A stretch of 64,000 nucleotides of DNA from positions 2,115 through 66,114 of the forward strand of contig DASWKB010000024.1 in NCBI GenBank assembly GCA_036396895.1, given 5' to 3'. Numbering within the stretch: position 1 is the first letter of the stretch; each line of letters opens with the position of its first letter. Below are positions 1 to 63,030 of the stretch, one piece after another. The DNA comes from a bacterium. Lineage in GTDB: Bacteria; Omnitrophota; Gorgyraeia; Aquiviventales; Aquiviventaceae. A model generated the notes under the pieces. The model was not told the DNA's origin and searched no databases. It saw only the letters and a list, made by a program, of their open reading frames with translations. A program made the position numbers and the translations under genes.

Positions 1-60
1 AATACCGAGTGAAAGTCGTCAAACACTATCGTGCGTGAGCACAACTCGAGCGTTGGCGAG

Positions 61-81
61 AGGCTGGAAGCTGGAATGATC
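61..81. repeat. hepta-2 tandem array (GCTGGAN orientation) with GATC-side cap
   Basis: Read directly: aggctgga-agctgga-atgatc. Confidence 0.6.
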
Positions 82-92
82 GGTGGCGACGA

Positions 93-128
93 TGCCAAAT
101 TCGGAATTCGGAATTGGGAATGCGGAAT
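93..128. repeat. hepta-1 tandem array (CGGAATN) with TGCCAAAT cap
   Basis: tgccaaat-tcggaat-tcggaat-tgggaat-gcggaat; identical 36-mer recurs at 6427-6462. Confidence 0.85.
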
Positions 129-130
129 GG

Positions 131-220
131 GTTATGTGCTGTCACGGGAACGCAGGTTTGTGCCGCAAAGGAAGATGACGCCTGTGCCTGTGTGGAGAGC
201 CTCCATTGTTGACGATTCAC
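131..220 (-). repeat. IGR-core element, alpha subfamily
   Basis: Reverse complement of the copy at 4435-4530. Ends in ccattgttgacgattca, the complement of the TGAATCGTCAACAA signature. Confidence 0.8.
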
Positions 221-234
221 AATTCACGGGAGGC

Positions 235-265
235 GAGAAGCTGAAAGCTGGAGGCTGGAACGATC
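235..265. repeat. hepta-2 tandem array
   Basis: gagaagctg-aaagctg-gaggctg-gaacgatc. Confidence 0.7.
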
Positions 266-330
266 ACGTGCCGCACGAACGATCAAGCGTGCATCTGTGC
301 ATAAGTGCAGGGCTATTGTTATTGACGACC
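262..330 (-). repeat. IGR-core element, beta subfamily (diverged)
   Basis: gatcacgtgccgcacgaacgatcaagcgtgcatctgtgcataagtgcag...ttgttattgacgacc aligns by eye to the reverse complement of the beta copies at 2721, 4322 and 7021. Confidence 0.7.
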
Positions 331-370
331 GTCATGCTCCGGCATCCTGCCCGTGTTCAGTCTCTTCAAT

Positions 371-424
371 AATCCGCAATCGGAAATCCGCAATCCGCAA
401 TTCACGATCCAGCCTCCAGCTTCC
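371..424. repeat. hepta-6 array (AATCCGC) followed by hepta-2 units
   Basis: aatccgc-aatcgga-aatccgc-aatccgc-aattcac-gat-ccagcct-ccagctt. The same composite recurs at 6813-6866. Confidence 0.8.
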
Positions 425-471
425 CGGTCGCCATCAACGGGCCAGGTATATCGGAAATTGGCTGGAAGGGC

Positions 472-1476: not shown

Positions 1477-1477
1477 G

Positions 1478-2551
1478 TCAGCGCCGCTCCACGGCCTGCG
1501 ACGCCGGCGCCGGCGGCGCCCCGGCCGCCGCTTCGCGGAGATAACGCGCGGCTTCCTCCGGCGGCGTCGGGTTGATGTAGAACCCCGTGCCCCATTCGAA
1601 CCCCGCCACCCTCGTGAGGCGCGGAATGAGCTCCAGGTGCCAGTGAAAGTCGTCTTCCAGCGTCTTCCAGTGACCGAGTCTTCCCCGCCCGCTGCGAAAC
1701 GGCGCCGTATGCAGCAGGTAGTTGTACGGAGGGTCCTCCAGCACGGTCTTCAGCCGCGACAGGACCTCTTTGAGCGCCACCGGCAGCTCCCGGATCTCCT
1801 CCTGGCGCATGCGCGCGAAGTCCGGACTATGGCGCTTCGGCAGAATGCACAGCTCGAACGGAAACCGCGAGGCGAACGGCGCCAGCGCGATGATGTGGGG
1901 GGACTCGAACACGACCCGCACGCCCGATTCGCGCTCCTGCTGGATGACATCGCACATCAGGCAGCGCTCCTTGTCCTCGTAATAGCGGCGGCTGCACAGG
2001 AGCTCTTCCTTCACGACCTTGGGCGTGACGGGCGTGGCGATAAGCTGGGAGCGCGTGTGATCGATCCGGCCCGCGCCGGCCACCCCGCCGTGATTCTTGA
2101 ACCACAGCACGTAGCGGAAGCGCGGGTCCCGCTCCAGATCCACGATCCGGTTTACGGTCGTCTGTACCACCAGCTGGAGCTGCTCGGCCGACAAGTCCGC
2201 GGCATTGCTGACGTGTTTGGGGCTCTCGATGATCATCTCGTGCGCGCCGATGCCGTCCATCACGTCGTAGATCCCCTTCGCCCGCCGGTTCAGCCGGCCC
2301 TCGATGCGCAGCACGGGATTCACGCTCGGGATCACGCGAACGGTCCAGCCGGGCTTATCGGCGCCCGGGCGGGCGCGCACGGCGAGGATCTCCCGCCGCG
2401 TGTCCGCCTCGTGTCCCTCGCAGAAGGGGCACTCGGCCGGATCCGCATGCGCATCGTGCGGAGGGAGGAAGTCCTCGGGCCCTTTCGCGCGCTCGGTGGC
2501 GATGATGACCCACCGCCGCGTCAGGGGGTCTTTCCGAAGCTCAGGCATCAC
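1478..2551 (-). CDS. GalT-like HIT-superfamily nucleotidyltransferase, paralog 2
   Basis: 357-aa ORF ending 1 nt before the paralog 1 start. Has CPFCEGHE, VIPSVNPVL, FKNHGGVAGA, FHWHLELIP and GFEWGTGFYINP. The nucleophile site reads DHTRSQ. Confidence 0.8.
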   Translation of the reverse strand: MMPELRKDPLTRRWVIIATERAKGPEDFLPPHDAHADPAECPFCEGHEADTRREILAVRARPGADKPGWTVRVIPSVNPVLRIEGRLNRRAKGIYDVMDGIGAHEMIIESPKHVSNAADLSAEQLQLVVQTTVNRIVDLERDPRFRYVLWFKNHGGVAGAGRIDHTRSQLIATPVTPKVVKEELLCSRRYYEDKERCLMCDVIQQERESGVRVVFESPHIIALAPFASRFPFELCILPKRHSPDFARMRQEEIRELPVALKEVLSRLKTVLEDPPYNYLLHTAPFRSGRGRLGHWKTLEDDFHWHLELIPRLTRVAGFEWGTGFYINPTPPEEAARYLREAAAGAPPAPASQAVERR

Positions 2552-2564
2552 GCCAGTCCATTGG

Positions 2565-2601
2565 TGCCAATTTCGGAGTTCGGAATTGGAAATGCGGAAT
2601 T
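2565..2601. repeat. hepta-1 tandem array with TGCCAAT cap
   Basis: tgccaattt-cggagtt-cggaatt-ggaaatg-cggaatt. Confidence 0.8.
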
Positions 2602-2602
2602 G

Positions 2603-2690
2603 GTCTTGTGCTCTCTCGGGAACGCAGGTTTGTGCCGCAACGGAAGATGACGCTTGCGCATGTGTGCAGAGCTTCCGAGGTTGACGCTAG
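2603..2690 (-). repeat. IGR-core element, alpha subfamily (diverged at the signature end)
   Basis: gtcttgtgctctctcgggaacgcaggtttgtgccgcaacggaagatgacgc... is collinear with 131-220. Confidence 0.75.
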
Positions 2691-2720
2691 AGAACCGGTC
2701 GGATGCTGGAGCATGGAATG

Positions 2721-2799
2721 TGAATCGTCAACAACGAAGGCTCTGCACTCATGCACAGATGCACGCGTGCTCGTTCGTGCGGCACTCGACCATTCCAGC
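2721..2799 (+). repeat. IGR-core element, beta subfamily
   Basis: tgaatcgtcaacaacgaaggctctgcactcatgcacagatgcacgcgtgctcgttcgtgcggcac...cattccagc. It is convergent with the alpha copy at 2603-2690. Confidence 0.85.
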
Positions 2800-2816
2800 G
2801 ACCAGCCTCCAGCTTC
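2795..2816. repeat. hepta-2 tandem array
   Basis: ccagcga-ccagcct-ccagctt. Confidence 0.75.
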
Positions 2817-2827
2817 TACCCGATTCG

Positions 2828-3763
2828 TCACGACGCCGGTGGCGTTTCGAAGCGGTCGCCCGCGGCGATGCCGCGGCCCGCGACGAACGCCGCCGCCGGC
2901 ATCCGCCGGCGGCCACCGGGCTGAACCTCGAGAACCTGAAGCTCCCCCTGGCCCGTCGCGACCGCGATCCCATCGGAGGACGCGCGGACCACCGTGCCGG
3001 GCGCCGCCCCGCTTCGCGCATCAGGACACGCGCTCGCCGCGAAGATTCTGAGCGGCTCGCCTCCGCGCCACGCGGTCGCCACAGGCCACGGCACGAACGC
3101 CCGCACCTGCCGCTCCAGCTCGCGGGCCGGGAGCCTCCAGTCCAGGGTCCCCTGCGCCTTCGTCAGCTTGGGCGCGAACGTCGCTTCCTCGTCCCGCTGC
3201 GGCGTTTCCTTCGCCGTGCCGGCTGAGAGCTGATGCAGCGCTTCGATGAGCGCCTCCGCCCCCAGCGTCGAGAGCCGCGCGCTTAGGCCTTCGGATGTCT
3301 CCTCCGGCGCGATCGGCATGATCCGCCGGATGAGCACCGGCCCGGCATCCAGCGCTTCGACGAGCCGGTAAATGCAGACCCCCGTTTCCGGCTCGCCGTT
3401 CAGAATCGCCCACGGCACCGGCGCCGCCCCGCGGTACTTGGGCAGCAGCGACGGGTGAACGCCGAGCAGGCCGAACCGCACTGCCTCGAGCAAGTCGCGC
3501 CGCAACAGCTGTCCGTACGCGACCACCACGCCCACATCCGCCTCAAGCGGCGCGATCGCGTCGGCGCGCGGACGCTCCGGCTGCTGCACGATGAGACCCA
3601 GGCGCTCCGCCGCGGCTTTGACCGGCGACGGCGCCGGCTTGAGCCCCCGGCCCTGCGGCCGGTCCGGCCGCGACACGCACGCGACGACGCGGTGGTCCGA
3701 ATGGGCCAGCCGTTCGAGCACCGGGACGGCATACGCTGACGTGCCGAAATACACGACGCGCAT
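2828..3763 (-). CDS. fmt: methionyl-tRNA formyltransferase
   Basis: MRVVYFGTSAYAVPVLERL N-terminus, HPSLLPKYRGAAP motif and an Fmt C-terminal domain. The ATG at 3763 overlaps the def stop (TGATG). The track ORF extends to 3808. Confidence 0.9.
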   Translation of the reverse strand: MRVVYFGTSAYAVPVLERLAHSDHRVVACVSRPDRPQGRGLKPAPSPVKAAAERLGLIVQQPERPRADAIAPLEADVGVVVAYGQLLRRDLLEAVRFGLLGVHPSLLPKYRGAAPVPWAILNGEPETGVCIYRLVEALDAGPVLIRRIMPIAPEETSEGLSARLSTLGAEALIEALHQLSAGTAKETPQRDEEATFAPKLTKAQGTLDWRLPARELERQVRAFVPWPVATAWRGGEPLRIFAASACPDARSGAAPGTVVRASSDGIAVATGQGELQVLEVQPGGRRRMPAAAFVAGRGIAAGDRFETPPAS

Positions 3764-4251
3764 CAGCGCACGCGGCGCCGGAGCCTGAGCCGCAGGCGTG
3801 CCGGCCACGAGAGCCGGTCGACGAACAGCCGCCCGTCAAGGTGATCGCACTCGTGCTGGAGGATGATCGCCAGCAGGCCCTCGGCCTCGATCCTGAACGG
3901 ATTGCCGTTCCGGTCCTGGGCCGCGACGCGCACCCACGCCGAGCGCTTCACCTTCGCCCACGCACCCGGAAGGCTCAGGCACCCCTCCGTCAGCGCCGCG
4001 CGGCCGTGTTGGGCCTCGATCACCGGATTGGCCAAGAGGAGCTCCTCGCCACGCCGCTGCGTATGGCCGACGACGCAGAGCCTGAGCGATTCGCCGACCT
4101 GCGGCGCCGCCAGCCCCACGCCGTCGTTGGCGTGCATCGTCTCGATCATCTCCGCCGCCAACCGGCGCAGGGCCTCCGCGAACTCCGTTACCGGCTCCGC
4201 GCGCCGGCGCAGGGCCGGCGCCGGCGCGAAGGTCAACACGCGCGCGCCCAT
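3763..4251 (-). CDS. def: peptide deformylase
   Basis: The three deformylase motifs are all present: GVGLAAPQVG, EGCLSLPG, QHECDHLDG. Classic def-fmt gene order. Confidence 0.92.
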   Translation of the reverse strand: MGARVLTFAPAPALRRRAEPVTEFAEALRRLAAEMIETMHANDGVGLAAPQVGESLRLCVVGHTQRRGEELLLANPVIEAQHGRAALTEGCLSLPGAWAKVKRSAWVRVAAQDRNGNPFRIEAEGLLAIILQHECDHLDGRLFVDRLSWPARLRLRLRRRVR

Positions 4252-4262
4252 ATCTTATGCGT

Positions 4263-4290
4263 ATTCTATCGTCGCCATCCCAAAAAGCAA
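4263..4290 (-). promoter_or_regulatory. sigma70-like promoter candidate upstream of def-fmt
   Basis: On the minus strand: TTGCTT, a 16-nt spacer, TAGAAT, then 12 nt to the def ATG. Lies in a locally AT-richer stretch. By-eye match only. Confidence 0.35.
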
Positions 4291-4321
4291 GTGATGCACG
4301 TCATCCGAGCAACCGGCAAGT

Positions 4322-4400
4322 TGAATCGTCAACACCGAAGGCTCTGCACCCGTGCACAGATGCACGCGTGATCGTTCGTGCGGCACGTGATCATTCCAGC
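4322..4400 (+). repeat. IGR-core element, beta subfamily
   Basis: tgaatcgtcaacaccgaaggctctgcacccgtgcacagatgcacgcgtgatcgttcgtgcggcacgtgatcattccagc. Confidence 0.85.
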
Positions 4401-4423
4401 TTCTCGCGTCCAGCTTCTCGCCT
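4396..4423. repeat. 14-nt direct repeat x2 (hepta-2-derived linker)
   Basis: ccagcttctcgcgt-ccagcttctcgcct. The same linker is seen at 6994-7011 and 7108-7124. Confidence 0.8.
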
Positions 4424-4434
4424 CCCGTGAATTA

Positions 4435-4530
4435 TGAATCGTCAACAACGGAGGCTCTCCACACAGGCACAGGCGTCATCTTCCTTTGCGGCACAAACCT
4501 GCGTTCCCGTGAGAGCACATAACCCATTCC
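4435..4530 (+). repeat. IGR-core element, alpha subfamily
   Basis: tgaatcgtcaacaacggaggctctccacacaggcacaggcgtcatcttcctttgcggcacaaacctgcgttcccgtgagagcacataacccattcc. Confidence 0.85.
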
Positions 4531-4548
4531 GAATTCCGAAGTTGGCAT
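4526..4548. repeat. hepta-1 array (ATTCCGN orientation) with cap
   Basis: attccga-attccga-agttggcat. Confidence 0.7.
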
Positions 4549-4567
4549 CTATCCAATCTCGCACTTC

Positions 4568-5752
4568 TCACAGGAAACACGCCACCACCATGGCCACGAC
4601 CGCGAGGACGCCGCCCGCCGTGTACGGCGCCTGCCCCAGCATCCCCGCGGAGCGAAGGGCATCGGCGTGCAGCAGCCACCCGCCGAGCACGGGGCCCGCG
4701 ATCCGCGCCAGACTCGCGGCCGACTGCATGACGCCCAGCACCCGCCCCTGAGACTGAGAGCCGGCGCTCCGGGACGCGAGCCCGTTCAGCGGGGCCAGGA
4801 TCAGGCTGTGCCCGACGGCGATCCCCGTCGTCACCGACAGCAGGCACGCCAACGTCACGCTGGATGGCAACAGGAACAGGCTTGCGGCGAGGAGCGCCGT
4901 GCCGGCGATGATCAGCTTCTTATCGCCGAACATTCTCACCAGCCAGCCGAGCATGCCGCCCTGGATGACGGCGCCGATGAGTCCCTGCCCCGCGAAAATG
5001 TATCCGTTCTGGGCCGCCGAGAGTCCGAACCGCCGCTCGGTGAACAGCGCGTAGGTCGCCGTGAGAAGCGAAAACGCCGCGGTCGAGAAGAAATACGCCA
5101 GGAGAATCACGCCGAACGGCCGCCGGCGCAGCGACCGGAACGACTCGCCGAACGAGGAGCGTTCCCGTGCATGGCCGCGCTGCTCGGGCGGCAGGCTCTC
5201 CGGCAGCAGCCAAAAGATCGCCACGGCCGTGACCGCGGCCAGGAACGCCGCGAACAGAAACGGTGCCGCAAGCGACACGTGGCTCAGCAGTCCGCCGATG
5301 GCCGGGCCGAAGATGAATCCCAGCCCGAACGCCGCGCCGATCAGGCCCATCCCGCGCGAACGCTGCTCCGGCGGCGTGATATCGGCGATGTAGGCCTGCG
5401 CCGTCGAGATATTGCCGCCCGTGGCGCCGTCGATGATGCGTGCGACGAACAGGAGCGGCAGCGTGTGCGCGACGCCCATGAGGAGAAATCCGGCCGCCGT
5501 GCCGATCACGCTGAGCAGGAGGACCGGCCGCCTGCCCACGCGGTCCGACAGCCGGCCGAGAAGCGGGGCGCAGACGAACTGCATGGCGGAGTAGACCGCC
5601 AGCAGCAGCCCGACGACGAACGGCGACGCGTCGAACTGCTCCGCGTAGATGGGCAGGACGGGGATCACGATCCCGAAGCCGACCAGATCGAGAAACACGA
5701 TCCCGAAGATCAGGAAGTACGGCGACCGCCGGCTGGAACGGGCGTGATCCAT
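4568..5752 (-). CDS. MFS transporter (drug/H+ antiporter-like)
   Basis: 394 aa, hydrophobic throughout with about 12 spans by eye, and an MFS motif-A-like GRLSDRVGRRPVLL. Confidence 0.85.
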   Translation of the reverse strand: MDHARSSRRSPYFLIFGIVFLDLVGFGIVIPVLPIYAEQFDASPFVVGLLLAVYSAMQFVCAPLLGRLSDRVGRRPVLLLSVIGTAAGFLLMGVAHTLPLLFVARIIDGATGGNISTAQAYIADITPPEQRSRGMGLIGAAFGLGFIFGPAIGGLLSHVSLAAPFLFAAFLAAVTAVAIFWLLPESLPPEQRGHARERSSFGESFRSLRRRPFGVILLAYFFSTAAFSLLTATYALFTERRFGLSAAQNGYIFAGQGLIGAVIQGGMLGWLVRMFGDKKLIIAGTALLAASLFLLPSSVTLACLLSVTTGIAVGHSLILAPLNGLASRSAGSQSQGRVLGVMQSAASLARIAGPVLGGWLLHADALRSAGMLGQAPYTAGGVLAVVAMVVACFL

Positions 5753-5759
5753 GCGGACG

Positions 5760-6077
5760 CTAGCGCCGGAGCAACTCGGCCAGGACCGATCCGAGCGCGG
5801 CGGCGCTGAAGAGCACCATCAGCGCGTCGGGCATGACGCGGCGTTTGGCTTTCCAGGTGCCGAGAAACCTCACGGCCAGCGCCAGCGCGATCAGGAGACT
5901 CAGGACGGACCCTGCCGTGCGGCCTTCCAGTATCCAGGAGGCGCAGAGCAGCAGGATCCCGCCCAATCCGACGCCCGCGATCAGGGAGGGGACGCTGCGC
6001 GCTTTGACATATCCGATGATGCCGCCCAGGATGGTGAATGTCCCGTAGGCGGCGACGATTGTTGCCGTGTATGACAT
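5760..6077 (-). CDS. TMEM14/UPF0136-family small membrane protein
   Basis: MSYTATIVAAYGTFTILGGIIGYVKARSVPSLIAG matches the family pattern GGxxGYxKxxSxxSLxAG. ATG at 6077. The track ORF starts at a GTG at 6104. Confidence 0.7.
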   Translation of the reverse strand: MSYTATIVAAYGTFTILGGIIGYVKARSVPSLIAGVGLGGILLLCASWILEGRTAGSVLSLLIALALAVRFLGTWKAKRRVMPDALMVLFSAAALGSVLAELLRR

Positions 6078-6142
6078 CCTGCTATTGTCGGGCAAGCTCA
6101 CCACTCACGCCAGCATAAAATCCGGGCCGGAGGCCAACGGCC

Positions 6143-6177
6143 GCGTAACGTGAAACGCGTAACGCGTAACGTGATCG
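6143..6177. repeat. hepta-3 tandem array
   Basis: gcgtaac-gtgaaac-gcgtaac-gcgtaac-gtgatcg. Confidence 0.8.
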
Positions 6178-6180
6178 CGT

Positions 6181-6285
6181 GTCTTGTGCCGTGACGGACG
6201 ATGAGGATTGTACAGTGACGACAGATGACGCCTGTGCATTTGTGCAACGCCTTGTTTGTTGGTGCCCGAACTGAATGAGTCATAA
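6181..6285 (-). repeat. IGR-core element, degenerate copy
   Basis: gtcttgtgccgtgacgg...agatgacgcctgtgcatttgtgcaacgccttgtttgttgg...ctgaatgagtca keeps blocks of the alpha core. Confidence 0.5.
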
Positions 6286-6340
6286 GTGAGAGGCTTGAAG
6301 GTAGCGCCTGGAATGCGGGGGCGGATCATGCTTGGAACAT

Positions 6341-6368
6341 GGGACGGGGGACAGGGGACGTGGACGGA
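6341..6368. repeat. hepta-4 tandem array
   Basis: gggacgg-gggacag-gggacgt-ggacgga. Confidence 0.8.
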
Positions 6369-6384
6369 ATCAGAGATCCGTGGC

Positions 6385-6415
6385 GAGAAGCTGGAGGCTG
6401 GAAGCTGGAATGATC
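6385..6415. repeat. hepta-2 tandem array
   Basis: gagaagctg-gaggctg-gaagctg-gaatgatc. Confidence 0.8.
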
Positions 6416-6426
6416 AGCCGCGACGA

Positions 6427-6462
6427 TGCCAAATTCGGAATTCGGAATTGGGAATGCGGAAT
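6427..6462. repeat. hepta-1 tandem array with TGCCAAAT cap
   Basis: Identical to 93-128. Confidence 0.85.
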
Positions 6463-6464
6463 TG

Positions 6465-6549
6465 GTCTTGTGCTGTCACGGGAACGCAGGCTTGTGCCGT
6501 CATAGAAAGTCACGAGTGTGCATAAGCGAAACGTCTTCGTTGTTGACGG
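6465..6549 (-). repeat. IGR-core element, alpha-like
   Basis: gtcttgtgctgtcacgggaacgcaggcttgtgccgtcatagaaagtcacgagtgtgcataagcgaaacgtcttcgttgttgacgg. Confidence 0.75.
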
Positions 6550-6583
6550 GTCGGGAACCGGTCGGAAGCTGGAGCGTGAAATC

Positions 6584-6696
6584 GAATCGTCAACAACGGA
6601 GGCTCTGCACACATGCACAATCGTCATCGTGCATCGCGGCACACACCTGCTCTCCCGGTACGGCACAAGACCCATTCCGCATTCCGCACCATGCTC
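6584..6696 (+). repeat. IGR-core element, gamma subfamily
   Basis: 113 nt identical by hand comparison to 7135-7247. Starts gaatcgtcaacaacggaggctctgcacacatgcacaatcgtcatcgtgcatcgcggcac. Confidence 0.9.
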
Positions 6697-6812
6697 GCGC
6701 GTGACACGTTACGCGGCATGTCATGCTCATCACGCTCCAGTTCCGTATGCCTCCCCTGTCCCAAGCGTGGCTCGCCTATGACTCCGATCCTCCCGGTCTG
6801 CTCAAGTCTTTC

Positions 6813-6866
6813 AATCCGCAATCCGAAATCCGCAACCCGCAATTCACACGGAGCCTCCAGCTTCAG
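6813..6866. repeat. hepta-6 array followed by hepta-2 units
   Basis: aatccgc-aatccga-aatccgc-aacccgc-aattcac...gagcctccagcttcag. Paralogous to 371-424. Confidence 0.8.
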
Positions 6867-6896
6867 TCCTGCAACACGACACAACCCCTGACGCCG

Positions 6897-6960
6897 CCGT
6901 GACGCGTTTCGCGTTACGCGGGCCCGCAAGTCGGGGGTCCCCTCGGGGGCTGTCCCCCTT
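6897..6960. repeat. hepta-3 units followed by G5/C5-rich hepta-4-like palindromic stretch
   Basis: ccgtgacgcgtttcgcgttacgcgg...tcgggggtcccctcgggggctgtccccc. Confidence 0.6.
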
Positions 6961-6971
6961 GGACCAGACTA

Positions 6972-7011
6972 CTTCCAGCCTCCAGCCTCTAGCGTCCAGC
7001 TTCTCGCCTCC
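6972..7011. repeat. hepta-2 tandem array plus conserved linker
   Basis: cttccagcctccagcctctagcgtccagcttctcgcctcc. Confidence 0.8.
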
Positions 7012-7020
7012 CGTGATGTT

Positions 7021-7100
7021 TGAATCGTCAACAACGAAGGCGCTGCACTCATGCACAGATGCACGCGTGATCGTTCGTGCGGCACGTGATCATTCCAGCC
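7021..7100 (+). repeat. IGR-core element, beta subfamily
   Basis: tgaatcgtcaacaacgaaggcgctgcactcatgcacagatgcacgcgtgatcgttcgtgcggcacgtgatcattccagcc. Confidence 0.85.
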
Positions 7101-7124
7101 TCCAGCGTCCAGCTTCTCGCCTCC
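7091..7124. repeat. hepta-2 tandem array plus conserved linker
   Basis: cattccagcctccagcgtccagcttctcgcctcc. Confidence 0.8.
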
Positions 7125-7134
7125 CGTGATGTTT

Positions 7135-7247
7135 GAATCGTCAACAACGGAGGCTCTGCACACATGCACAATCGTCATCGTGCATCGCGGCACACACCTG
7201 CTCTCCCGGTACGGCACAAGACCCATTCCGCATTCCGCACCATGCTC
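7135..7247 (+). repeat. IGR-core element, gamma subfamily
   Basis: 113 nt identical to 6584-6696. Confidence 0.9.
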
Positions 7248-7281
7248 TCACGTTACACGTTCCACGTTTCACGTGACACGC
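7247..7281. repeat. hepta-3 tandem array directly downstream of the priA stop
   Basis: ctcacgtta-cacgttc-cacgttt-cacgtga-cacgc. Confidence 0.8.
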
Positions 7282-7282
7282 A

Positions 7283-9319
7283 TTATGAAGGATCAACATC
7301 CACCGCGACAGGAAGCCCCGCGAACCGGCGCCCCGGCTGCAAGGTGTGCCGGATGAGCTCCACGATGGGCTCGACGCTCTTGTGCTTGAGGAGCACACAC
7401 ATCCGGTACGTGCGGCGCATCTTCGGGATGCGGTGCGGGGCCGGACCGATGATCTCGATCTTCGAACCCGCCGCGCGCTTCCGGAGCGCGTCCGCCAGGT
7501 CAGCGGCGGTCTGCTCCGCGCGGTCCTGCTTCCCGGCGCGGACGGTCAGCTCCGCCAGATGGCAGAACGGCGGGAGGCGAAGGCGCCGGCGCATCTTGAG
7601 TTCCTCGCGGTAAAAGCCCACGTAATCGTGCTTGGCCGCCGCGGTGATGGCGTAATGGTCCGGATGGAATGTCTGCACGAGCACCCGGCCCGGTTGCGCT
7701 CCGCGGCCGGCCCGCCCGGCCACCTGCGCCAGGAGATCGAAGGTGCGCTCCCCCGCCCTGAAATCCGGCAGATTGAGCGCGGTGTCGGCCGAAATGACGC
7801 CGACCAGCGTGACCTCGGGGAAGTGCCAGCCCTTCGCGATCATCTGCGTGCCGACCAGGACCCCGATCTTGCCCGACTTCATCCCTTCGTAGAACTCCTC
7901 GTGGCTGGTCCGGGCCTTCGTGGTGTCGGTGTCCATGCGCGCGATCGACGCGCCCGGGAACACCCGGTGCAGTTCCGACTCGACGCGCTCGGTGCCGGTA
8001 CCCCGGAATCTGACGGCGCCCTTCTTGCAGTGCGCGCACACCTCGGGCGGCGGCTCGCGGTGGTTGCAGTAATGACAGACCATCCCGCCCTCGGCGGCGT
8101 GGTAGATGAGCGGGACCGAGCAGCGGGGACACAGCGCAGAGGCTCCGCACTGCAGGCACTGCGCGATCCGGGCGAACCCTCGGCGGTTAAGCAGGAGCAG
8201 CGCCTGCTCGCCTCGCCCCGTCACCTGCTCGAGCGCCAGCTGGAGCCTGAGCGAGAGCGGAGCGCTTCGCCTGCCGCGGCCGGCCTCGCGCATGTCGACG
8301 ATGGAGACCTTCGGCATCGCGCGCCCCTCGACCCGCTCCGGAAGCTCAAGCAGCATGCCCCCCCGCCGGCGCGCGGCGTAGGCGCTTTCCATCGAAGGGG
8401 TCGCGCTGCCGAGGATGACGAGCGCGCCGGTCACGCGCGCCCGGGCGAGGGCCACGTCGCGGGCGTGATAGCGCGGAGCGTCCTCCTGTTTGTAGGTCTG
8501 CTCGTGCTCCTCATCCAGCACGATGACCCCGAGCCGGCGGATCGGGGTGAAGACGGCGGAACGGGCGCCGATCACGATCCGGGAACGCCCGCAGCTCATG
8601 GCCTGCCAGGCGGCCGACCGCTGGCGCGCAGTCATGCGGCTGTGCCAGACGGCGACCGTGTCGCCGAAACAGCCCCGGAACCGCTCGATCGTCTGGGGCG
8701 TGAGCGCGATTTCCGGTATCAGGCAGATCGCTCCCTGCCCCCGCCTGAGCGCCCGGTCGATCACGCGAAGGTACAGCTCCGTTTTTCCCGATCCGGTCAC
8801 GCCGTGGAGCAGCGCCGCGCGCGCGCGCCCGGCCTCGAGCGCCGCGAAGAGACGTCCGAGCGCCAGGTCCTGGTGGGATGTCAGCACGTGGGTGAAGGGC
8901 GCGACGGCGCCCCGGACCGGCTCATCCGGCGCGTCAGGCTCCGCCGGACCGACGCGAAGCGCCGCCGGGACCATGACGCCGAAGGCTTCGCCGAGACTGC
9001 ACCCGTAGTAGCCCGAGAGCCACTCGGCCAGCCGCCAGCGGTCCTCCGACACGACGGGCTGCGGATCGAGGACGCGCCGGATGGCCTTCAGGCCGGGAAA
9101 CGGAGCAACCCCGCTGCGCCGGAGGATGAAGCCCTGGCGTTCCCTGCGGCCGAACGGGGCGGCCACGCGCGTGCCCGGCACGGCGGCCTGCTGCAATGCC
9201 CCTGGCACGGCATAGTGGAACGGGTGCTCGATCGGCAGGCTGAACACGACTTCGGCGTACGGGAGCGCGGCGTCCGCCGTGGCGTCATCAATGCGCACTC
9301 GCCTTGGAGCAGAACTCAT
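7283..9319 (-). CDS. priA: primosomal protein N' (replication restart helicase PriA)
   Basis: GVTGSGKTELYL Walker A, LDEEHE, and paired CxxC zinc motifs (CLQCG, CPRC, CHYC, CAHC). ATG at 9319. The track ORF starts at a TTG at 9346 inside the hepta-1 cap. Confidence 0.9.
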   Translation of the reverse strand: MSSAPRRVRIDDATADAALPYAEVVFSLPIEHPFHYAVPGALQQAAVPGTRVAAPFGRRERQGFILRRSGVAPFPGLKAIRRVLDPQPVVSEDRWRLAEWLSGYYGCSLGEAFGVMVPAALRVGPAEPDAPDEPVRGAVAPFTHVLTSHQDLALGRLFAALEAGRARAALLHGVTGSGKTELYLRVIDRALRRGQGAICLIPEIALTPQTIERFRGCFGDTVAVWHSRMTARQRSAAWQAMSCGRSRIVIGARSAVFTPIRRLGVIVLDEEHEQTYKQEDAPRYHARDVALARARVTGALVILGSATPSMESAYAARRRGGMLLELPERVEGRAMPKVSIVDMREAGRGRRSAPLSLRLQLALEQVTGRGEQALLLLNRRGFARIAQCLQCGASALCPRCSVPLIYHAAEGGMVCHYCNHREPPPEVCAHCKKGAVRFRGTGTERVESELHRVFPGASIARMDTDTTKARTSHEEFYEGMKSGKIGVLVGTQMIAKGWHFPEVTLVGVISADTALNLPDFRAGERTFDLLAQVAGRAGRGAQPGRVLVQTFHPDHYAITAAAKHDYVGFYREELKMRRRLRLPPFCHLAELTVRAGKQDRAEQTAADLADALRKRAAGSKIEIIGPAPHRIPKMRRTYRMCVLLKHKSVEPIVELIRHTLQPGRRFAGLPVAVDVDPS

Positions 9320-9340
9320 CCGCCGCCCACCAGCACATGA

Positions 9341-9428
9341 TGCCAAATGCGGAATTCGGAATCGGGAATTCGGAATCGCGCGTTCGGGCCTTCATTCCGC
9401 ATTCCGAATTCCGCATTCCGAATTTGGC
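9341..9428. repeat. inverted hepta-1 arrays forming a long imperfect hairpin
   Basis: Left arm tgccaaatgcggaattcggaatcgggaattcggaat, loop of about 17 nt, right arm attccgcattccgaattccgcattccgaatttggc. Mismatches fall at the variable heptad position. Confidence 0.85.
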
Positions 9429-9481
9429 TTCACTCCCCACTCTCCTCGAGACGCTCCACACTTGGCATAGCGTCGCGTGAC

Positions 9482-9509
9482 GTGCCCCCTGCCCCCCGCC
9501 CCTTGCCCC
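9482..9509. repeat. hepta-4 tandem array (NNGCCCC orientation)
   Basis: gtgcccc-ctgcccc-ccgcccc-ttgcccc. Confidence 0.85.
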
Positions 9510-9557
9510 AGACCTGACGGATAGACGAATGAGACGAATTGGGTGACATCGGGAGTG

Positions 9558-10241
9558 TCAACGCGTTCGGGTCTTCGTCGGCGGTTCCCGCCCGAGCACC
9601 TTGAGAACGACCTGCAGATCCTCCCACGCCTGCGGCTTGGCGGCCGGATTGCGCAGGAGATAGGCGGGATGGTACGTCGGCACAAGCGGCACGCCTTCAT
9701 ACTCCTTGACCGAGCCGCGGACCCGGCTGATGGCGATGTGCGGCCCGAAGAGCGCCTTCACCGCCACCGCCCCCAGCGTGCAAATGACCTTCGGCCGGAT
9801 GATCTCGATCTGCTCCAGCAGGTACGGCAGGCACGCGTCGACTTCGGACGGCTCCGGCGTGCGGTTGTTCGGCGGACGGTCTTTCAGGATGTTGCAGATG
9901 TAGACCTGCTCGCGATGCAGTCCCATGGCTTCGATCATCTTCGTCAGCAGCTTGCCCGCGGCCCCGACGAACGGTTTGCCCTGCAGGTCCTCGTCCCTCC
10001 CGGGAGCTTCCCCGATGAACATCAGCTCCGCATCCTGGCTGCCATCGCTGACGACCGCGTGCGTGCGGGTCCTGTACAGGGGGCACTTCCGGCACTGCTC
10101 GACCGCCCGCGCCAGCGCCGCAAGCCGCTCGCTTCGACCTCCGCGATCACCTCCGCGCGGCAGTGCCTCCAGCCCCATCAGCTTCAATCCCTCGGCGTGG
10201 AGCCGCGCCGCCTTCGCGAGTGCTCGTCGCTCGTCATTCAT
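9558..10241 (-). CDS. family-4 uracil-DNA glycosylase
   Basis: [39 protein letters not shown]. Start placed at MNDERR (10241). The longer track ORF (to 10394) translates heptad repeats at its N-terminus. Confidence 0.85.
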
Positions 10242-10346
10242 GGGTTCACCCTGCGATTGGGGCAACGGGCGGGAGGCACGGGACATGAACCGTAAGTCCA
10301 TTGATCGTGGACCGTGTAACGTGTCCTGTAGGAACACATGCACATA

Positions 10347-10381
10347 GGTTCCAGGTTCCAGCTTCCACCTTCCAGCATCCG
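10347..10381. repeat. hepta-2-like tandem array
   Basis: ggttcca-ggttcca-gcttcca-ccttcca-gcatccg. Confidence 0.8.
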
Positions 10382-10391
10382 ACCGAAACCC

Positions 10392-10423
10392 CACGTTACA
10401 CGATACACGTTACACGTTACGCG
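10392..10423. repeat. hepta-3 tandem array spanning the stop codon of the 10410 gene
   Basis: cacgtta-cacgata-cacgtta-cacgtta-cgcg. Confidence 0.85.
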
Positions 10424-11576
10424 GCGTGAGAAGCGGTTCGACGACCTGCTCGATGATATCGTTCGCCGCGTTCGGCCGGCCGGCGTCGCGCGCGCCCGTT
10501 CTGAGCTTCGCCATGAGCTCGGGCGAAGAGGCGCAGTGCCGCACGAACTCCGCGGCCGCCTCCGGGCCCAGCGCGATCACTCCCGCCCCCTGCCGCGCGA
10601 CGTACCGCGCATTCGATTCCTCCTGCCCAGGAATCGCGTGATAGAAGACCAGGGGCAGCTCGCACGCCAGCGCCTCGGCCACCGTCAGGCCACCCGCCTT
10701 GGCCACGGCCAGATCCGCCGTTCCCATCAAGTCCAGCATATTGTGCACGAATCCGAAGACCCTCGCGGGCATCGGCGCCGCCGCAGCCGCCGCCTCAAGG
10801 CGCGCCGTCGTGCGGGCGTCATCCCCGCAGACGACGATGAGCTGCAGCCGCCCTGGCACCATGGCCTCGAGTCTCAACAGCCGCTCGACGAGGTCTGCGA
10901 ACCGGCCGACGGTGGTGCCGCCGCTCGTGACCAGCACGGTCAGCCGGTCGTGCGCAAGACCGAGCGATTCCCTGAGCGCCCGCCGGCGCGTCTCGGTGAG
11001 CGGCGCCGCGGCGACCGTCGGAATCCCAAGCGCCGCCACGCGCTCGCGCGGCACGCCGAGCTCCACGCAACGGTCCGCCCCCGCCTGATTCGCCACGACC
11101 ACCGCGTCCGGACGGGCGCCGAGCCACAGCCGGTGCGGATGCCAGTCGGTGACGACGACCACGACCGGCGCCCGCAGCCGCCCCGCGGTCCGCGCAGCCC
11201 CCAAGAGGTCGGCCGGGAAAAAGTGCGTCAGGACCGCCACGTCCGGCTGCTCCGCGAGCAGGACGGCCGGCATGCGGTATCCGATCAGCCGGTTCCAGGC
11301 GCGCCGGAACGGCTGGATGCACCGGAACACCGCCGCCTGATCCAGCGCGCGATACGAAAACTTCCAGCACATCGGCAGCGCGCGCACCAGGAACAAGTAC
11401 AGGCGGGCGTACCCGCTCCGATACCAGCCCGGAGTCCATGCCAGGGCGTCCAGACAGCGAACGTCGGCGTCCGGCCAGCGCCGCCGCGCCGCGTCCGCCA
11501 GCGCTTCAGCCGCCCGGCGATGTCCGGCCCCGGCCGTCGCGTACGCAATCAGAATCCGAGGTCTTGATGAATCCAT
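10410..11576 (-). CDS. GT28-type glycosyltransferase (MGDG synthase / UgtP-like diacylglycerol glycosyltransferase)
   Basis: 388 aa. N-terminal ILIAYATAGAGHRRAAEAL and C-terminal AVAKAGGLTVAEALACELPLVFYHAIPGQEESNA are typical of the MGDG_synth plus Glyco_tran_28_C architecture. Confidence 0.8.
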   Translation of the reverse strand: MDSSRPRILIAYATAGAGHRRAAEALADAARRRWPDADVRCLDALAWTPGWYRSGYARLYLFLVRALPMCWKFSYRALDQAAVFRCIQPFRRAWNRLIGYRMPAVLLAEQPDVAVLTHFFPADLLGAARTAGRLRAPVVVVVTDWHPHRLWLGARPDAVVVANQAGADRCVELGVPRERVAALGIPTVAAAPLTETRRRALRESLGLAHDRLTVLVTSGGTTVGRFADLVERLLRLEAMVPGRLQLIVVCGDDARTTARLEAAAAAAPMPARVFGFVHNMLDLMGTADLAVAKAGGLTVAEALACELPLVFYHAIPGQEESNARYVARQGAGVIALGPEAAAEFVRHCASSPELMAKLRTGARDAGRPNAANDIIEQVVEPLLTPRNV

Positions 11577-11585
11577 CCGCCATCG

Positions 11586-11664
11586 GGAAGCTTGAAGCTA
11601 GAAGCTCGATGATGGAACGAGCGATCCGATCATTCCAGCTTCAAGCTTCCAGCCTCCAGCTTCC
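11586..11664. repeat. inverted hepta-2 arrays with a perfect 14-bp stem
   Basis: ggaagcttgaagct (11586-11599) is the exact reverse complement of agcttcaagcttcc (11637-11650). Further CCAGCNT units run to 11664. Confidence 0.8.
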
Positions 11665-11673
11665 GCCCAGAGG

Positions 11674-12384
11674 TCAATTCGGCTTCTCAAGCCGCCGGAA
11701 CGCGTCATAGTAGCCGCTCAGCTTGGCCCGCATCAGAAGGGGATGCGCGTCGCGGTCGGTCACTTTGATGCGGCGCAGCGCGTAGCGGTCCAGCGGGCCT
11801 TGCAAGGCGACGCGGTTGGTCGTGCACGCGCCGCGGTAGCCAGCCGATTTGGCGATCTCCTGAATTTTCGAGGAGTAGCCGCCGATCGGGTAGCTCAGCC
11901 AGTCGGCCGCCATCCCGATCCGCTCCTCGATCGCGCGCTTGGAGCCGGCCAGCTCTTCCTCGAGCCGGGACTCCTCCAGGATCGGCAGATACTGATGATG
12001 CATGGTGTGGCTGCCGATGGTCACGCCGCCGTTCGCCATCGCGCTCACCTGCTCCCAGCTCATGAACCCCGGCAGCCCGATCTCCCCGGAGGAGATGAAC
12101 ACGGTCGCGGGCAGATTGAAGCGCTTCAGAATCGGCCATGCGATGCTCCAGGTCTCCTCATAGCCGTCATCGAAGGTGATGACCGCGCTCCGGCGCGGCA
12201 TCGCGCCGTCGCGTTTCACGAGCTCGCCCAGCTCACCCAGCGGCAGAACCCGGAGGCCGCTGCGCGCGAGACTCCCCATCTGCTGTTCGAACGCCTCCGC
12301 AGAGACGGTCGGCACGTGATCCCCCCGCATCCCGCCGACCCTGTGATAGGCCAGGATCGGGACGTAGTACCTCCACTGGTTCAT
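11674..12384 (-). CDS. polysaccharide deacetylase (CE4 family)
   Basis: ITFDDGYEETWSIAWPILKRFNLPATVF and GSHTMHHQYL NodB-type motifs. GGGAGG Shine-Dalgarno 9 nt upstream of the ATG. Confidence 0.85.
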   Translation of the reverse strand: MNQWRYYVPILAYHRVGGMRGDHVPTVSAEAFEQQMGSLARSGLRVLPLGELGELVKRDGAMPRRSAVITFDDGYEETWSIAWPILKRFNLPATVFISSGEIGLPGFMSWEQVSAMANGGVTIGSHTMHHQYLPILEESRLEEELAGSKRAIEERIGMAADWLSYPIGGYSSKIQEIAKSAGYRGACTTNRVALQGPLDRYALRRIKVTDRDAHPLLMRAKLSGYYDAFRRLEKPN

Positions 12385-12429
12385 ATCGAGTCACCTCCCA
12401 TGCACGCTTCCCCTACCATCCGCCTGGTC

Positions 12430-12514
12430 GGAAGCTGGACGGTGGAGGCTGGAAGCTGGAACGGGTATCGTTGGGCTTCCACCTGAATGATCTAACGTCC
12501 AGCTTCGAGCTTCA
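12430..12514. repeat. hepta-2 arrays in inverted orientation
   Basis: ggaagctggacggtggaggctggaagctggaac ... gtccagcttcgagcttca. Confidence 0.75.
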
Positions 12515-20692: not shown

Positions 20693-20825
20693 AACGTCTT
20701 TCGCAGTCCCTGAATCATCCTGACCAGCACCTCGGCATGCTCGTAGTGCTGCCGAAATTCCTGCTTTTCAAACTTGAATCCCATTATCCCTCGTCGCGTG
20801 CTCAAGCACCAACTTCGCGTGTCAG

Positions 20826-20866
20826 GCTGTGGTCTGTGGACAGTGGACTGTGGACTGCGTGTGGAC
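20826..20866. repeat. hepta-5 tandem array, inverted orientation (TGTGGAC)
   Basis: gctgtggtc-tgtggac-agtggac-tgtggac-tgcgtgtggac. Abuts the stop of the 20866 gene. Confidence 0.8.
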
Positions 20867-22066: not shown

Positions 22067-22150
22067 TGCCAAATGCGGAATCCGGAATTGGGAATTCGGA
22101 ATTATTGCGGACCGTGGAGATTCCGCATTCCGCATTCCGCATTCCGAATT
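22067..22150. repeat. inverted hepta-1 arrays forming a hairpin
   Basis: tgccaaatgcggaatccggaattgggaattcggaatt, loop of about 16 nt, attccgcattccgcattccgcattccgaatt. Confidence 0.85.
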
Positions 22151-23010: not shown

Positions 23011-23086
23011 TGGAGCCATGCGCATGCACCCGGCCGCTGAGGGACCCCCGGCCCGCGCAGGGCCGCCTCCCGACCCCTCAACCGCG

Positions 23087-25202: not shown

Positions 25203-25218
25203 GGCTCCTCACTACGCC

Positions 25219-25354
25219 GCGTCACGTGAAACGCGTAACGCGCCTTCATGTTGGACATGAGCCTCGCCCCACCGTTCCGGCCATCTGACTCGTCTTCAAT
25301 CATGATCGCGCTCGTTTGCTTCCCACGTTTCGCGTTACGCGTTACGCGTGACGC
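25219..25354. repeat. inverted hepta-3 arms around an ~80-nt loop
   Basis: gcgtcacgtgaaacgcgtaacgcg ... cacgtttcgcgttacgcgttacgcgtgacgc. The right arm spans the stop of the 25335 gene. Confidence 0.8.
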
Positions 25355-62966: not shown

Positions 62967-63030
62967 GGTGAGCTGAGATCTGGCCAGGACTGACTCCTAT
63001 CCACCGGCGTGAACACGCTCTATCCAGTCA

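What the first reader, a model, noticed from the sequence alone, without database searches (positions are those of the whole stretch)
6105..7282. 1.2-kb gene-free mosaic between priA and the TMEM14-like gene
This is the longest non-coding stretch in an otherwise tightly packed window. It consists of five core elements and at least a dozen heptad arrays drawn from five of the six unit families. The ORFs listed here only translate the repeats (e.g. FGIRNWECGM, LEAGSWN, RNSEFRI). Segments are paralogous to other gaps. 6425-6500 matches 91-165. 6813-6866 matches 371-424. 6972-7247 matches 4396-4530 in architecture. The region looks like a growth zone or nest for the repeat system, or a cluster of structured RNAs.
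Basis: seen in the sequence. Interest (0 to 1): 0.6.

Follow-up and report, generated by a model that had tools for sequence, protein, structure and literature searches.

The report
Nested-palindrome nest of intergenic repeat modules
The 1.2-kb gap after priA holds no gene: it is a pile-up of short repeat modules (7-base-periodic boxes plus two related "core" segments) arranged as one large imperfect palindrome, a locally grown example of the widespread and still unexplained bacterial heptamer repeats.

Summary
Window 6105-7282 is the longest non-coding stretch. It contains five core copies (four long, one short) and about 14 heptad arrays from five of the six unit families. The three paralogy claims hold.

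No protein gene or known RNA was found: no codon signal, and no Pfam, Rfam or homology hit.

New points:
- The region is a nested imperfect palindrome. Outer arms 6143-6260 pair with 7143-7281; inner arms 6451-6554 pair with 6582-6685.
- The heptad arrays are fixed-length boxes of about 32 nt, with conserved caps and units of five conserved plus two variable bases.
- All 11 core copies in 64 kb lie in four neighbouring gaps within 7.3 kb.
- Four Omnitrophota relatives keep the same gene order with short gaps. They lack TMEM14-MFS in the priA-def slot.
- The cores show no conserved RNA fold. Mismatches between palindrome arms are mostly non-wobble.

Best reading: a lineage-specific nest of non-autonomous, hairpin-forming repeat modules, BIME/REP/MITE-like, grown by local duplication and recombination. 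At most it acts as a transcript boundary.

"Growth zone" is supported; "cluster of structured RNAs" is not. Intergenic heptamer arrays are already known and unexplained, so interest is moderate.

The parts
6140..6180 (.). ACGYGWA heptad box; left outer arm of the palindrome
   Evidence: TRF. Inverted pair I6 with 7241-7280 at 80%. Outermost MFE helix 6143-6180 / 7242-7281.
6181..6261 (-). Degenerate long core (L') that pairs with the long core at 7143-7222
   Evidence: nhmmer E 7e-11. Helix of 58-61 bp. 71-76% identical to the other long cores.
6337..6362 (+). GGGGACA heptad array
   Evidence: TRF. Inverted partner at 6741-6762 (I12).
6382..6416 (+). GCTGGAA heptad box with caps GGCGAGAAG... 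and ...GGAATGATC
   Evidence: 94% complementary to 7087-7121 (I5). Helix of 33-34 bp.
6425..6465 (+). GGAATKC heptad box with GCCAAAT cap, joined to the long core
   Evidence: The same box with the same internal variants occurs at 91-130.
6446..6552 (-). Long core; left arm of the inner palindrome
   Evidence: nhmmer E 1.8e-29. I1 arms 6451-6553 / 6583-6685 are 74% complementary.
6553..6583 (.). Centre of symmetry (spacer). GC skew changes sign here.
   Evidence: GC skew is +0.31 to the left and -0.33 to the right. Inner helix.
6584..6688 (+). Long core with a 2.3-unit CATTCCG tail; right arm of the inner palindrome. Identical within the core to 7134-7239.
   Evidence: nhmmer E 3.3e-32. 100% core identity to 7134-7239. 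D1 duplication at 97.6%.
6698..6762 (.). Short CACGTTA array (6698-6717) and TGTCCCC array (6741-6762)
   Evidence: Inverted pairs I11 and I12.
6812..6866 (-). GCGGATT box (6812-6843) followed by a short TCCAGC run; paralogue of 371-424
   Evidence: TRF. 89% identity to 371-423.
6898..6920 (.). CGTTACG heptad array
   Evidence: TRF. I9 is 92% complementary to 6141-6164.
6972..7011 (-). GCTGGAR box (reads TTCCAGC on the + strand)
   Evidence: TRF. Part of the D2 duplication 6981-7057 / 7094-7170 at 95%.
7021..7094 (+). Short core (S). It shares its first 36 nt with the long core.
   Evidence: nhmmer E 9.6e-27. Alignment A1.
7094..7124 (-). GCTGGAR box that pairs with 6382-6416
7134..7239 (+). 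Long core with CATTCCG tail; pairs with 6181-6261
   Evidence: nhmmer E 2e-32. Helix.
7247..7281 (.). CACGTTA heptad box; right outer arm. It ends 2 nt from the priA stop codon.
7020..7237 (+). 218-nt S-L composite block. It is a direct repeat of 4321-4538 (87%) and an inverted repeat of 117-328 (86%).
4321..4540 (+). Second copy of the S-L composite, in the MFS-def gap. Together with 7020-7237 it brackets MFS, TMEM14 and the left part of the mosaic.
60..424 (-). Related mosaic in the GalT-GAPDH gap: GCTGGAA and GGAATKC boxes, a long core, a short core and a GCGGATT box
2565..2817 (.). Related mosaic in the fmt-GalT gap: GGAATKC box, a long core, an inverted short core and a TTCCAGC box
7283..9346 (-). 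priA (flanking gene, upstream in the direction of transcription)
   Evidence: Pfam. Closest homologues are 63% identical, all from Omnitrophota.
5760..6104 (-). Tmemb_14 family gene (flanking gene, downstream). Its start is probably the ATG at 6077.
   Evidence: Pfam E 5e-18. Gene call.

Best explanation
The gap is a lineage-specific nest of non-coding, non-autonomous repeat modules. The modules are ~32-nt heptad-periodic boxes plus two related core segments: a long core (L, ~105 nt) and a short core (S, ~74 nt).

Shown:
- The modules exist as discrete units with fixed ends.
- They have been copied between four neighbouring intergenic gaps.
- They have been duplicated again inside this gap.
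- Their orientations make the whole 1.14 kb an imperfect nested palindrome.

Inferred:
- Copying proceeds by recombination, template switching, or transposition in trans between the many short homologous boxes. Palindromic doublets are the propagating unit, as with REP doublets and MITEs.
- The priA-def junction tolerated the pile-up because it is a variable slot where gene content has changed.
- The RNA read through from priA would fold back on itself over about 1.1 kb. If the region has any effect, it is most likely as a transcript boundary or RNA-end stabiliser between priA and TMEM14-MFS, as described for REP/BIME elements. It is unlikely to act as a gene.
For: No gene:
- The codon-position GC profile is flat in all frames.
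- ORFs in the gap have no Pfam hit.
- A six-frame query from 6376-6700 and 6965-7100 had no hit among 5.8 billion proteins.
- The only ORF called by a pipeline (6723-6902) finds only itself, plus four weak hits to long repetitive proteins.
- No Rfam family matches.

Discrete modules:
- All eight GGAATKC boxes have four units after a GCCAAAT cap. The GCTGGAA and ACGYGWA boxes also have conserved caps.
- No array in the window is longer than 32 nt.

Copying:
- Blocks of 127-218 nt are shared at 80-98% identity within the gap and with gaps 1-471, 2549-2827 and 4252-4567.
- All 11 core copies lie within 7.3 kb. None lies in the other 57 kb of the window, nor in a further 5.4 kb of the same genome.

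Palindrome:
- MFE is -525.6 kcal/mol on the + strand (z = -14.9) and -550.5 on the - strand (z = -7.5), with nested long-range helices.
- GC skew flips at about 6560.

Lineage-specific expansion:
- Four Omnitrophota relatives keep the order MGDG synthase-UDG-PriA-(nothing, or an antisense TPR gene)-def-fmt-GalT-GalT-GAPDH.
- Their junctions are mostly 0-120 nt, the longest being about 290 nt. The window has repeats in almost every junction.

No trace elsewhere: the cores were not found in JGI metagenomes, viral contigs or plasmids.

Precedent:
- REPs lie close together in opposite orientation, downstream of coding regions, between unidirectional genes (PMC3733652).
- Pairs of 4-5 tandem heptanucleotides are scattered through Geobacter metallireducens (PMC2700814).
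Against: - No transposase, RAYT, integrase or reverse transcriptase is encoded in the 64-kb window. The last four ORFs (60719-64000) were not scanned, and the rest of the genome could not be examined.
- No target-site duplications are visible at hairpin ends.
- Within arrays, variation is confined to 2 of 7 positions. Unit similarity does not fall with distance. Both point to constraint on the boxes, which pure selfish spread does not explain.
- Heptad hairpins occupy the same junctions in two other Omnitrophota lineages. One box family (GCGGATT) sits in the same GalT-GAPDH junction in a genome whose PriA is 58% identical. This hints at function.
- The transcript-boundary role is inference only. 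No promoter was detected, and the one terminator-like site is no more than chance predicts.
Confidence: 0.6

Rival explanations
1. The heptad boxes are phased binding sites for an oligomeric DNA- or RNA-binding protein: four or five pentamer motifs spaced 7 nt apart. On this reading the mosaic is a dense cis-regulatory or nucleoid-organising platform rather than junk.
For: - Units consist of five conserved plus two variable positions in all three large families.
- Unit identity is the same at lags 7, 14 and 21.
- Box length is fixed and the caps are conserved.
- The modal length of about 31 nt recurs in unrelated phyla.
- Boxes occur at the same junctions in other Omnitrophota.
- Similar elements in Geobacter were annotated as putative global regulator sites (PMC2700814).
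Against: - At least six unrelated pentamers share the same architecture in one genome, so one sequence-specific protein cannot explain them.
- No candidate binding protein is linked to the boxes in the window.
- Boxes occur in either orientation and overlap gene ends.
- Two close relatives manage the same operon without any boxes.
Confidence: 0.2
2. The S-L composite blocks act as recombination (attachment-like) sites. The TMEM14-MFS pair would have been captured into the priA-def slot by recombination between two such blocks, leaving them as flanking direct repeats.
For: - 4321-4538 and 7020-7237 are direct repeats (87% over 218 nt). They bracket MFS, TMEM14 and the left part of the mosaic.
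- Relatives lack these two genes in this slot, whose content varies.
- No remnant of the relatives' TPR gene is present.
Against: - No integrase or recombinase is encoded in the window.
- The GC3 of the two genes equals that of their neighbours.
- The same blocks also lie between conserved core genes that were not moved.
- 87% identity shows the repeats are not recent.
- A simple duplication explains the pattern equally well.
Confidence: 0.08
3. The region encodes one or more structured non-coding RNAs.
For: - The whole-region folding energy is strongly negative relative to shuffles.
- Some simple array hairpins also fold well, for example 11577-11673 with z = -7.1.
Against: - No Rfam match, even at E <= 1 apart from one chance miRNA hit.
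- Seven long-core copies give no consensus fold and no compensatory support.
- Core-bearing gaps have z between -0.2 and -2.6.
- Arm mismatches are mostly non-wobble and show no strand bias.
- The folding signal comes from inverted copies of the same DNA.
Confidence: 0.07
4. The region is an assembly artefact: a mis-join or a mis-estimated copy number in a repeat-rich region of a short-read metagenome assembly.
For: - Internal repeats of 77-132 nt at 95-98% identity could confuse an assembler.
- Both available contigs come from metagenome assemblies.
Against: - Two contigs of different length (66 kb and 27 kb) agree base for base over 11.7 kb.
- The repeats are shorter than the final k-mer implied by the contig name (k141) and are not identical.
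- The same modules occur in many other gaps.
Confidence: 0.03

Closest known systems
Intergenic tandem heptamer repeats of prokaryotes. Examples: cyanobacterial STRR, Xanthomonas/Nostoc GGGAATC-type repeats, Beggiatoaceae TAACTGA, and Geobacter metallireducens elements with four or five tandem heptanucleotides in pairs.
   Same: - 7-nt period, 3-6 units, intergenic, often in inverted pairs, with several unit families per genome.
- Function unknown (PMC6344855, PMC4692102, PMC4679880, PMC2700814).
   Different: - Here the arrays behave as fixed-length boxes with conserved caps and a five-plus-two unit structure.
- They are fused to non-periodic core segments.
- They are stacked into a 1.1-kb nested palindrome.
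- G-quadruplex potential is absent for most families.
BIMEs (bacterial interspersed mosaic elements) and REP/REPIN doublets of Proteobacteria
   Same: - Mosaics of a few short module types in alternating orientation.
- They lie between co-directional genes just downstream of stop codons, are probably transcribed, and fold into larger hairpins.
- Proposed roles are termination and mRNA stabilisation (PMC3733652, plus established knowledge of BIMEs).
   Different: - The modules are not 20-40-bp palindromes with a GTAG or CGTC tag.
- No RAYT was seen.
- The cores are about 75-105 nt and not self-complementary.
- Core copies are confined to 7 kb rather than dispersed.
MITEs and ERIC-like imperfect palindromic intergenic elements
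   Same: - Non-coding, 80-250-nt units with inverted termini. Here the termini are array boxes, for example 20641-20857 and 25216-25355.
- Multiple copies and nested arrangements.
   Different: - No target-site duplications are visible.
- No related transposase was found.
- The termini are internally periodic.
Integron cassette arrays with attC (VCR-type) repeats
   Same: Imperfect-palindromic repeats between co-oriented genes, and direct repeats bracketing a lineage-specific gene pair.
   Different: - Most of the flanked genes are conserved core genes in conserved order.
- No integrase is present in the window.
- attC signature features were not examined.

Membership tests
Prokaryotic intergenic heptamer tandem repeats | Tandem units of 7 nt, more frequent than chance, in non-coding DNA | tested here: met
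   32 period-7 arrays against 1.8 in shuffles; other periods are at background. Nearly all lie in gaps, though a few ends overlap ORF termini.
Prokaryotic intergenic heptamer tandem repeats | Copy number varies by slippage (simple-sequence-repeat behaviour) | tested here: not met
   - Box length is fixed: all eight GGAATKC boxes have four units plus a cap, and no array exceeds 32 nt.
- Paralogous boxes differ by point changes, not by unit number.
- No population data were available.
REP / REPIN / BIME | 20-40-bp imperfect palindromic unit with an unpaired GTAG or CGTC tag | tested here: not met
   By inspection, boxes are direct 7-nt periodic arrays and cores are 75-105 nt. The long core has no stable consensus fold of its own. 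No tag search was run.
REP / REPIN / BIME | Units close together in opposite orientation, downstream of genes, between co-directional genes | tested here: met
   Inverted pairs I1-I12. 17 of 32 arrays have an inverted partner. All called genes are on the minus strand. The mosaic starts 2 nt after the priA stop.
REP / REPIN / BIME | Associated RAYT (Y1 transposase) gene in the genome | not testable with these tools
   None in the 64-kb window (the last four ORFs, 60719-64000, were not scanned).
REP / REPIN / BIME | High copy number dispersed over the chromosome | tested here: inconclusive
   Boxes are spread over the window, but all 11 core copies lie within 7.3 kb. Only 69 kb of the genome was seen.
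MITE | Terminal inverted repeats | tested here: met
   Array boxes form inverted termini at 20641/20857, 25216/25355 and 6140/7281.
MITE | Target-site duplications and empty-site polymorphism | tested here: not met
   No direct duplications flank seven hairpin elements, though register ambiguity in the arrays limits the test. No polymorphic or empty sites were available, because the two contigs are identical.
Structured ncRNA family (Rfam) | Match to a curated covariance model, or conserved structure with covariation | tested here: not met
Protein-coding gene | Codon-position composition, or a homologue | tested here: not met
Integron attC array | Integron integrase nearby; attC R/L boxes with GTTRRRY | not tested
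   No integrase family was found among the window proteins scanned. attC motif structure was not examined.

The most novel reading that the evidence does not exclude
The ~32-nt heptad-periodic boxes are not slippage products. They would be a cross-phylum class of phased cis sites: four to five pentamers at 7-nt spacing, with a fixed length of about three helical turns, usually in inverted pairs. An as yet unknown general factor or process would read them. On this reading the mosaic is a site where such boxes, with their core passengers, are generated or captured. It would give the long-noted excess of intergenic heptamer repeats in prokaryotes a concrete, testable architecture.
Probability: 0.12. 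Interest if true: 0.8.

Novelty: new variant of a known kind. Interest (0 to 1): 0.4.

Why it matters
Tandem heptamers are reported as the most abundant intergenic tandem repeat across prokaryotes, with "no clear clue" to their function (PMC6344855).

This window offers an unusually dense and well-structured case:
- six unit families;
- boxes of fixed length with caps;
- a five-plus-two unit structure;
- inverted pairing;
- fusion to core segments;
- a conserved operon whose relatives either lack the boxes or carry different ones at the same junctions.

That contrast makes the questions "selfish or functional?" and "DNA or RNA level?" approachable by comparative genomics and transcriptomics.

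For annotation, the practical message is that the 1.2-kb gap and the small ORFs called in it are repeat sequence, not genes.

Tried and rejected
- Exact-pattern scans for the core in JGI metagenomes (two patterns) and in viral contigs: 0 hits.
- blastn of the gap against plasmids: none.
- A six-frame concatenated peptide query, meant to recover repeat-derived ORFs from other contigs: none.
- PriA homologues: nothing closer than 63% identity except the source MAG itself. Strain-level synteny and length polymorphism could therefore not be checked. Look-up of the NCBI PriA product failed.
- Arrays built by 7 to 14 to 28 doubling: rejected, because identity at lag 14 is not higher than at lag 7.
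- A "G-rich arm first" rule for hairpins: rejected. This property is the same on both strands by construction, and L086 shows the opposite arrangement.
- CsrA-type GGA sponge: rejected. The ACGYG family has no GGA, and the GGA motifs lie in stems.
- Remnants of the relatives' TPR gene in the mosaic: none.
- Resemblance of the core 5' end to the GAPDH start or promoter: unconvincing.
- Sigma-70 promoter scan of 1-12,600: none found. Terminator-like sites are at or near chance level.
- Target-site duplications: none evident.
- Replication origin: considered, but there is no global GC-skew switch and all genes are co-oriented.
Full report
**1. What is there**

The window comes from a high-GC (about 68%) bacterium.
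- Its PriA is at most 63% identical to anything else in the databases, and all the best hits are Candidatus Omnitrophota.
- The source is an NCBI third-party MAG contig of 66 kb.
- A second contig, from an ENA assembly, is identical over 11,682 nt including the gap.

PriA occupies 7283-9346 and a Tmemb_14-family gene occupies 5760-6104 (probable start 6077). Both are on the minus strand.

Every gene I could call in the 64 kb is on the minus strand. Most encode surface-polysaccharide or nonulosonic-acid biosynthesis functions. No transposase, integrase or reverse transcriptase was found.

**2.

- Period-7 arrays number 32 in the window, against 1.8 expected from shuffles. Among periods 3-14, only 7 and its double stand out.
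- TRF finds 11 arrays inside 6142-7280. Three weaker ones appear as inverted partners.
- Five of the six unit families are present.
- A profile search finds five core copies in the gap: four long (L) and one short (S).
- The three stated paralogies are confirmed at 85-89% identity.
- The gap is the longest non-coding stretch. All other holes in a crude gene map are filled by minus-strand frames with the genome's coding GC3 > GC1 > GC2 pattern. No frame in the gap has that pattern.

**3. No gene, no known RNA**

- ORFs in the gap have no Pfam hit.
- A concatenated six-frame translation of the most repeated parts finds nothing among 5.8 billion proteins.
- The one ORF that a pipeline called (6723-6902) finds only itself, plus four weak hits to long repetitive proteins.
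- Rfam gives nothing at gathering thresholds. At E <= 1 it gives one chance miRNA hit.

**4.

(a) The heptad arrays are boxes, not free-running microsatellites.
- All eight GGAATKC arrays have four units after a GCCAAAT cap.
- GCTGGAA arrays run from GGCGAGAAG to GGAATGATC.
- ACGYGWA arrays start at CCGCGTA.
- No array exceeds 32 nt.
- Within units, five positions are conserved and two vary freely.
- Units are as similar at distance 21 as at distance 7.

(b) S and L are related. They share their first 36 nt (GAATCGTCAACAACGRAGGCKCTGCACWCATGCACA) and each hits the other's profile.

(c) Larger composite blocks recur.
- The 218-nt S-box-L block occurs at 7020-7237, at 4321-4538, and inverted at 117-328.
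- A box-L-spacer-core block occurs at 6427-6619 and 2565-2757.

(d) The gap contains recent internal duplications at 97.6% and 95% identity.

(e) The region as a whole is a nested imperfect palindrome.
- 6143-6180 pairs with 7242-7281.
- 6181-6260 pairs with 7143-7222.
- 6382-6416 pairs with 7087-7121.
- An inner hairpin joins 6451-6554 to 6582-6685.
- Folding energy is far below shuffles, with z = -14.9 on the + strand and -7.5 on the - strand.
- GC skew changes sign at the centre.

(f) All 11 core copies lie in four consecutive gaps within 7.3 kb. None lies in the remaining 57 kb or in a further 5.4 kb of the same genome.

**5. Is the folding functional RNA structure?**

Probably not.
- Seven L copies give no consensus structure and no compensatory support.
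- Core-bearing gaps fold little better than shuffles.
- Of 99 mismatches between inverted arms, 60 are non-wobble. The wobble-compatible ones split 23 to 16 between the strands.

The palindromy is thus what one expects from inverted copies of the same DNA.

**6. Comparative context**

Four Omnitrophota relatives (PriA 58-63% identical) share the order MGDG synthase-UDG-PriA-[nothing, or an antisense TPR gene]-def-fmt-GalT-GalT-GAPDH-PGK-TIM. Their junctions are short.

The window organism has the same order. The priA-def slot, however, holds the mosaic, TMEM14 and an MFS transporter. Almost every junction is swollen by repeats, to 123, 238, 1205, 316, 279 and 528 nt. No remnant of the TPR gene is present.

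Two relatives have no heptad arrays at all. Two others have arrays with different units, often as inverted pairs at the same junctions. One family, GCGGATT, lies in sense orientation in the GalT-GAPDH gap of both the window and L086.

Arrays of about 30-32 nt also occur near priA in unrelated phyla sampled by chance.

The core sequences were not found in JGI metagenomes, viral contigs or plasmids.

**7. Interpretation**

The best-supported reading is a lineage-specific nest of non-autonomous repeat modules. It grew by local copying and recombination at a junction where gene content is variable.

Shown:
- discrete modules;
- their copying between neighbouring gaps and within the gap;
- the nested inverted arrangement;
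- the absence of a gene;
- the absence of the expansion in relatives.

Inferred:
- the copying mechanism (recombination or template switching between short homologous boxes, or mobilisation in trans);
- any effect on expression.

A read-through transcript from priA would fold over about 1.1 kb. By analogy with REP/BIME elements (PMC3733652), a role as a transcript boundary or stabiliser is the most plausible. I found no direct evidence for it.

Against a purely selfish reading stand the five-plus-two unit structure, the fixed box length, and the recurrence at orthologous junctions. These keep a phased-binding-site model alive (confidence 0.2).

The direct S-L repeats bracketing TMEM14-MFS suggest a recombination-mediated insertion. 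That is a weaker reading (0.08).

**8. Relation to what is known**

Heptamer tandem repeats are recognised as the most abundant intergenic tandem repeat in prokaryotes, and are unexplained (PMC6344855, PMC4692102). Pairs of four or five heptanucleotides were catalogued in Geobacter metallireducens (PMC2700814), and TAACTGA arrays in Beggiatoaceae (PMC4679880).

The mosaic organisation resembles BIMEs and REP doublets. It fails their defining unit, a 20-40-bp tagged palindrome, and RAYT association could not be tested. It resembles MITEs in having inverted termini but shows no target duplications.

I therefore file it as a new variant of a known kind, not as a member of REP/BIME or MITE families.

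**9. Verdict**

This is a real, well-delimited, non-coding repeat nest. Its higher-order palindromic architecture had not been noticed. It is ordinary in kind and unusual in density and regularity. Interest is 0.4. The more novel reading, fixed-length phased-pentamer boxes as a general cis element, has a probability of about 0.12.

Noticed in passing
window 1-64000: Every gene-like frame in the window (about 53) is on the minus strand. Most of 11-62 kb is one large glycan or nonulosonic-acid biosynthesis cluster: NeuB, a cytidylyltransferase, three asparagine-synthase-like genes, and many glycosyl- and methyltransferases.
   Followed up: partly
window 370-401 and L086 16660-16693: A GCGGATT heptad box lies in sense orientation in the GalT-GAPDH gap of both this genome and another Omnitrophota MAG whose PriA is only 58% identical. 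In L086 it ends about 20 nt before the GAPDH start codon. Among the 86 fetched loci, the pattern occurs only in these two genomes.
   Followed up: partly
window 4321-4538 and 7020-7237: The 218-nt S-L composite occurs as direct repeats (87%). They bracket the MFS and TMEM14 genes, which relatives lack in the priA-def slot, together with the left part of the mosaic.
   Followed up: partly
L003, L054, L066, L072, L084, L086 (loci around priA in other bacteria): Period-7 arrays with lineage-specific units occur in Verrucomicrobiales, Acidobacteriota, Alkaliphilus, Clostridiales and other Omnitrophota. Many are inverted pairs. The modal length is about 30-32 nt, as in this window. Two other Omnitrophota loci (L082, L085) have none.
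   Followed up: partly
window 22102-22150: The reading frame of the glycosyltransferase-like gene 22102-23265 runs into a GGAATGC box. The box supplies its last ~14 codons (IRNAECGMRNLHGPQ), and the frame stops in the hairpin loop.
   Followed up: partly
L081 11654-11688 (about window 29 to the window start, minus strand): A close match to a sigma-70 promoter (TTGACG, 17 nt, TACAAT) lies between the repeat mosaic and the GAPDH start. GAPDH may therefore have its own promoter downstream of the repeats.
   Followed up: no
window 6115-6142, minus strand: A terminator-like hairpin with a T-run (GGCCGTTGGCCTCCGGCC CGGATTTTAT) sits at the TMEM14-proximal end of the mosaic. One such site is no more than chance predicts for the region.
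   Followed up: no
window 20641-20857 and 25216-25355: Two gaps hold inverted heptad boxes (GTCCACA and CGTAACG families). They flank about 150 and 90 nt of unrelated sequence, giving a MITE-like layout without visible target duplications.
   Followed up: partly
window 6723-6902, plus strand: An ENA gene call places a 59-aa protein inside the mosaic. It has no homologue other than itself and translates repeat boxes, so it is very probably a spurious call.
   Followed up: yes
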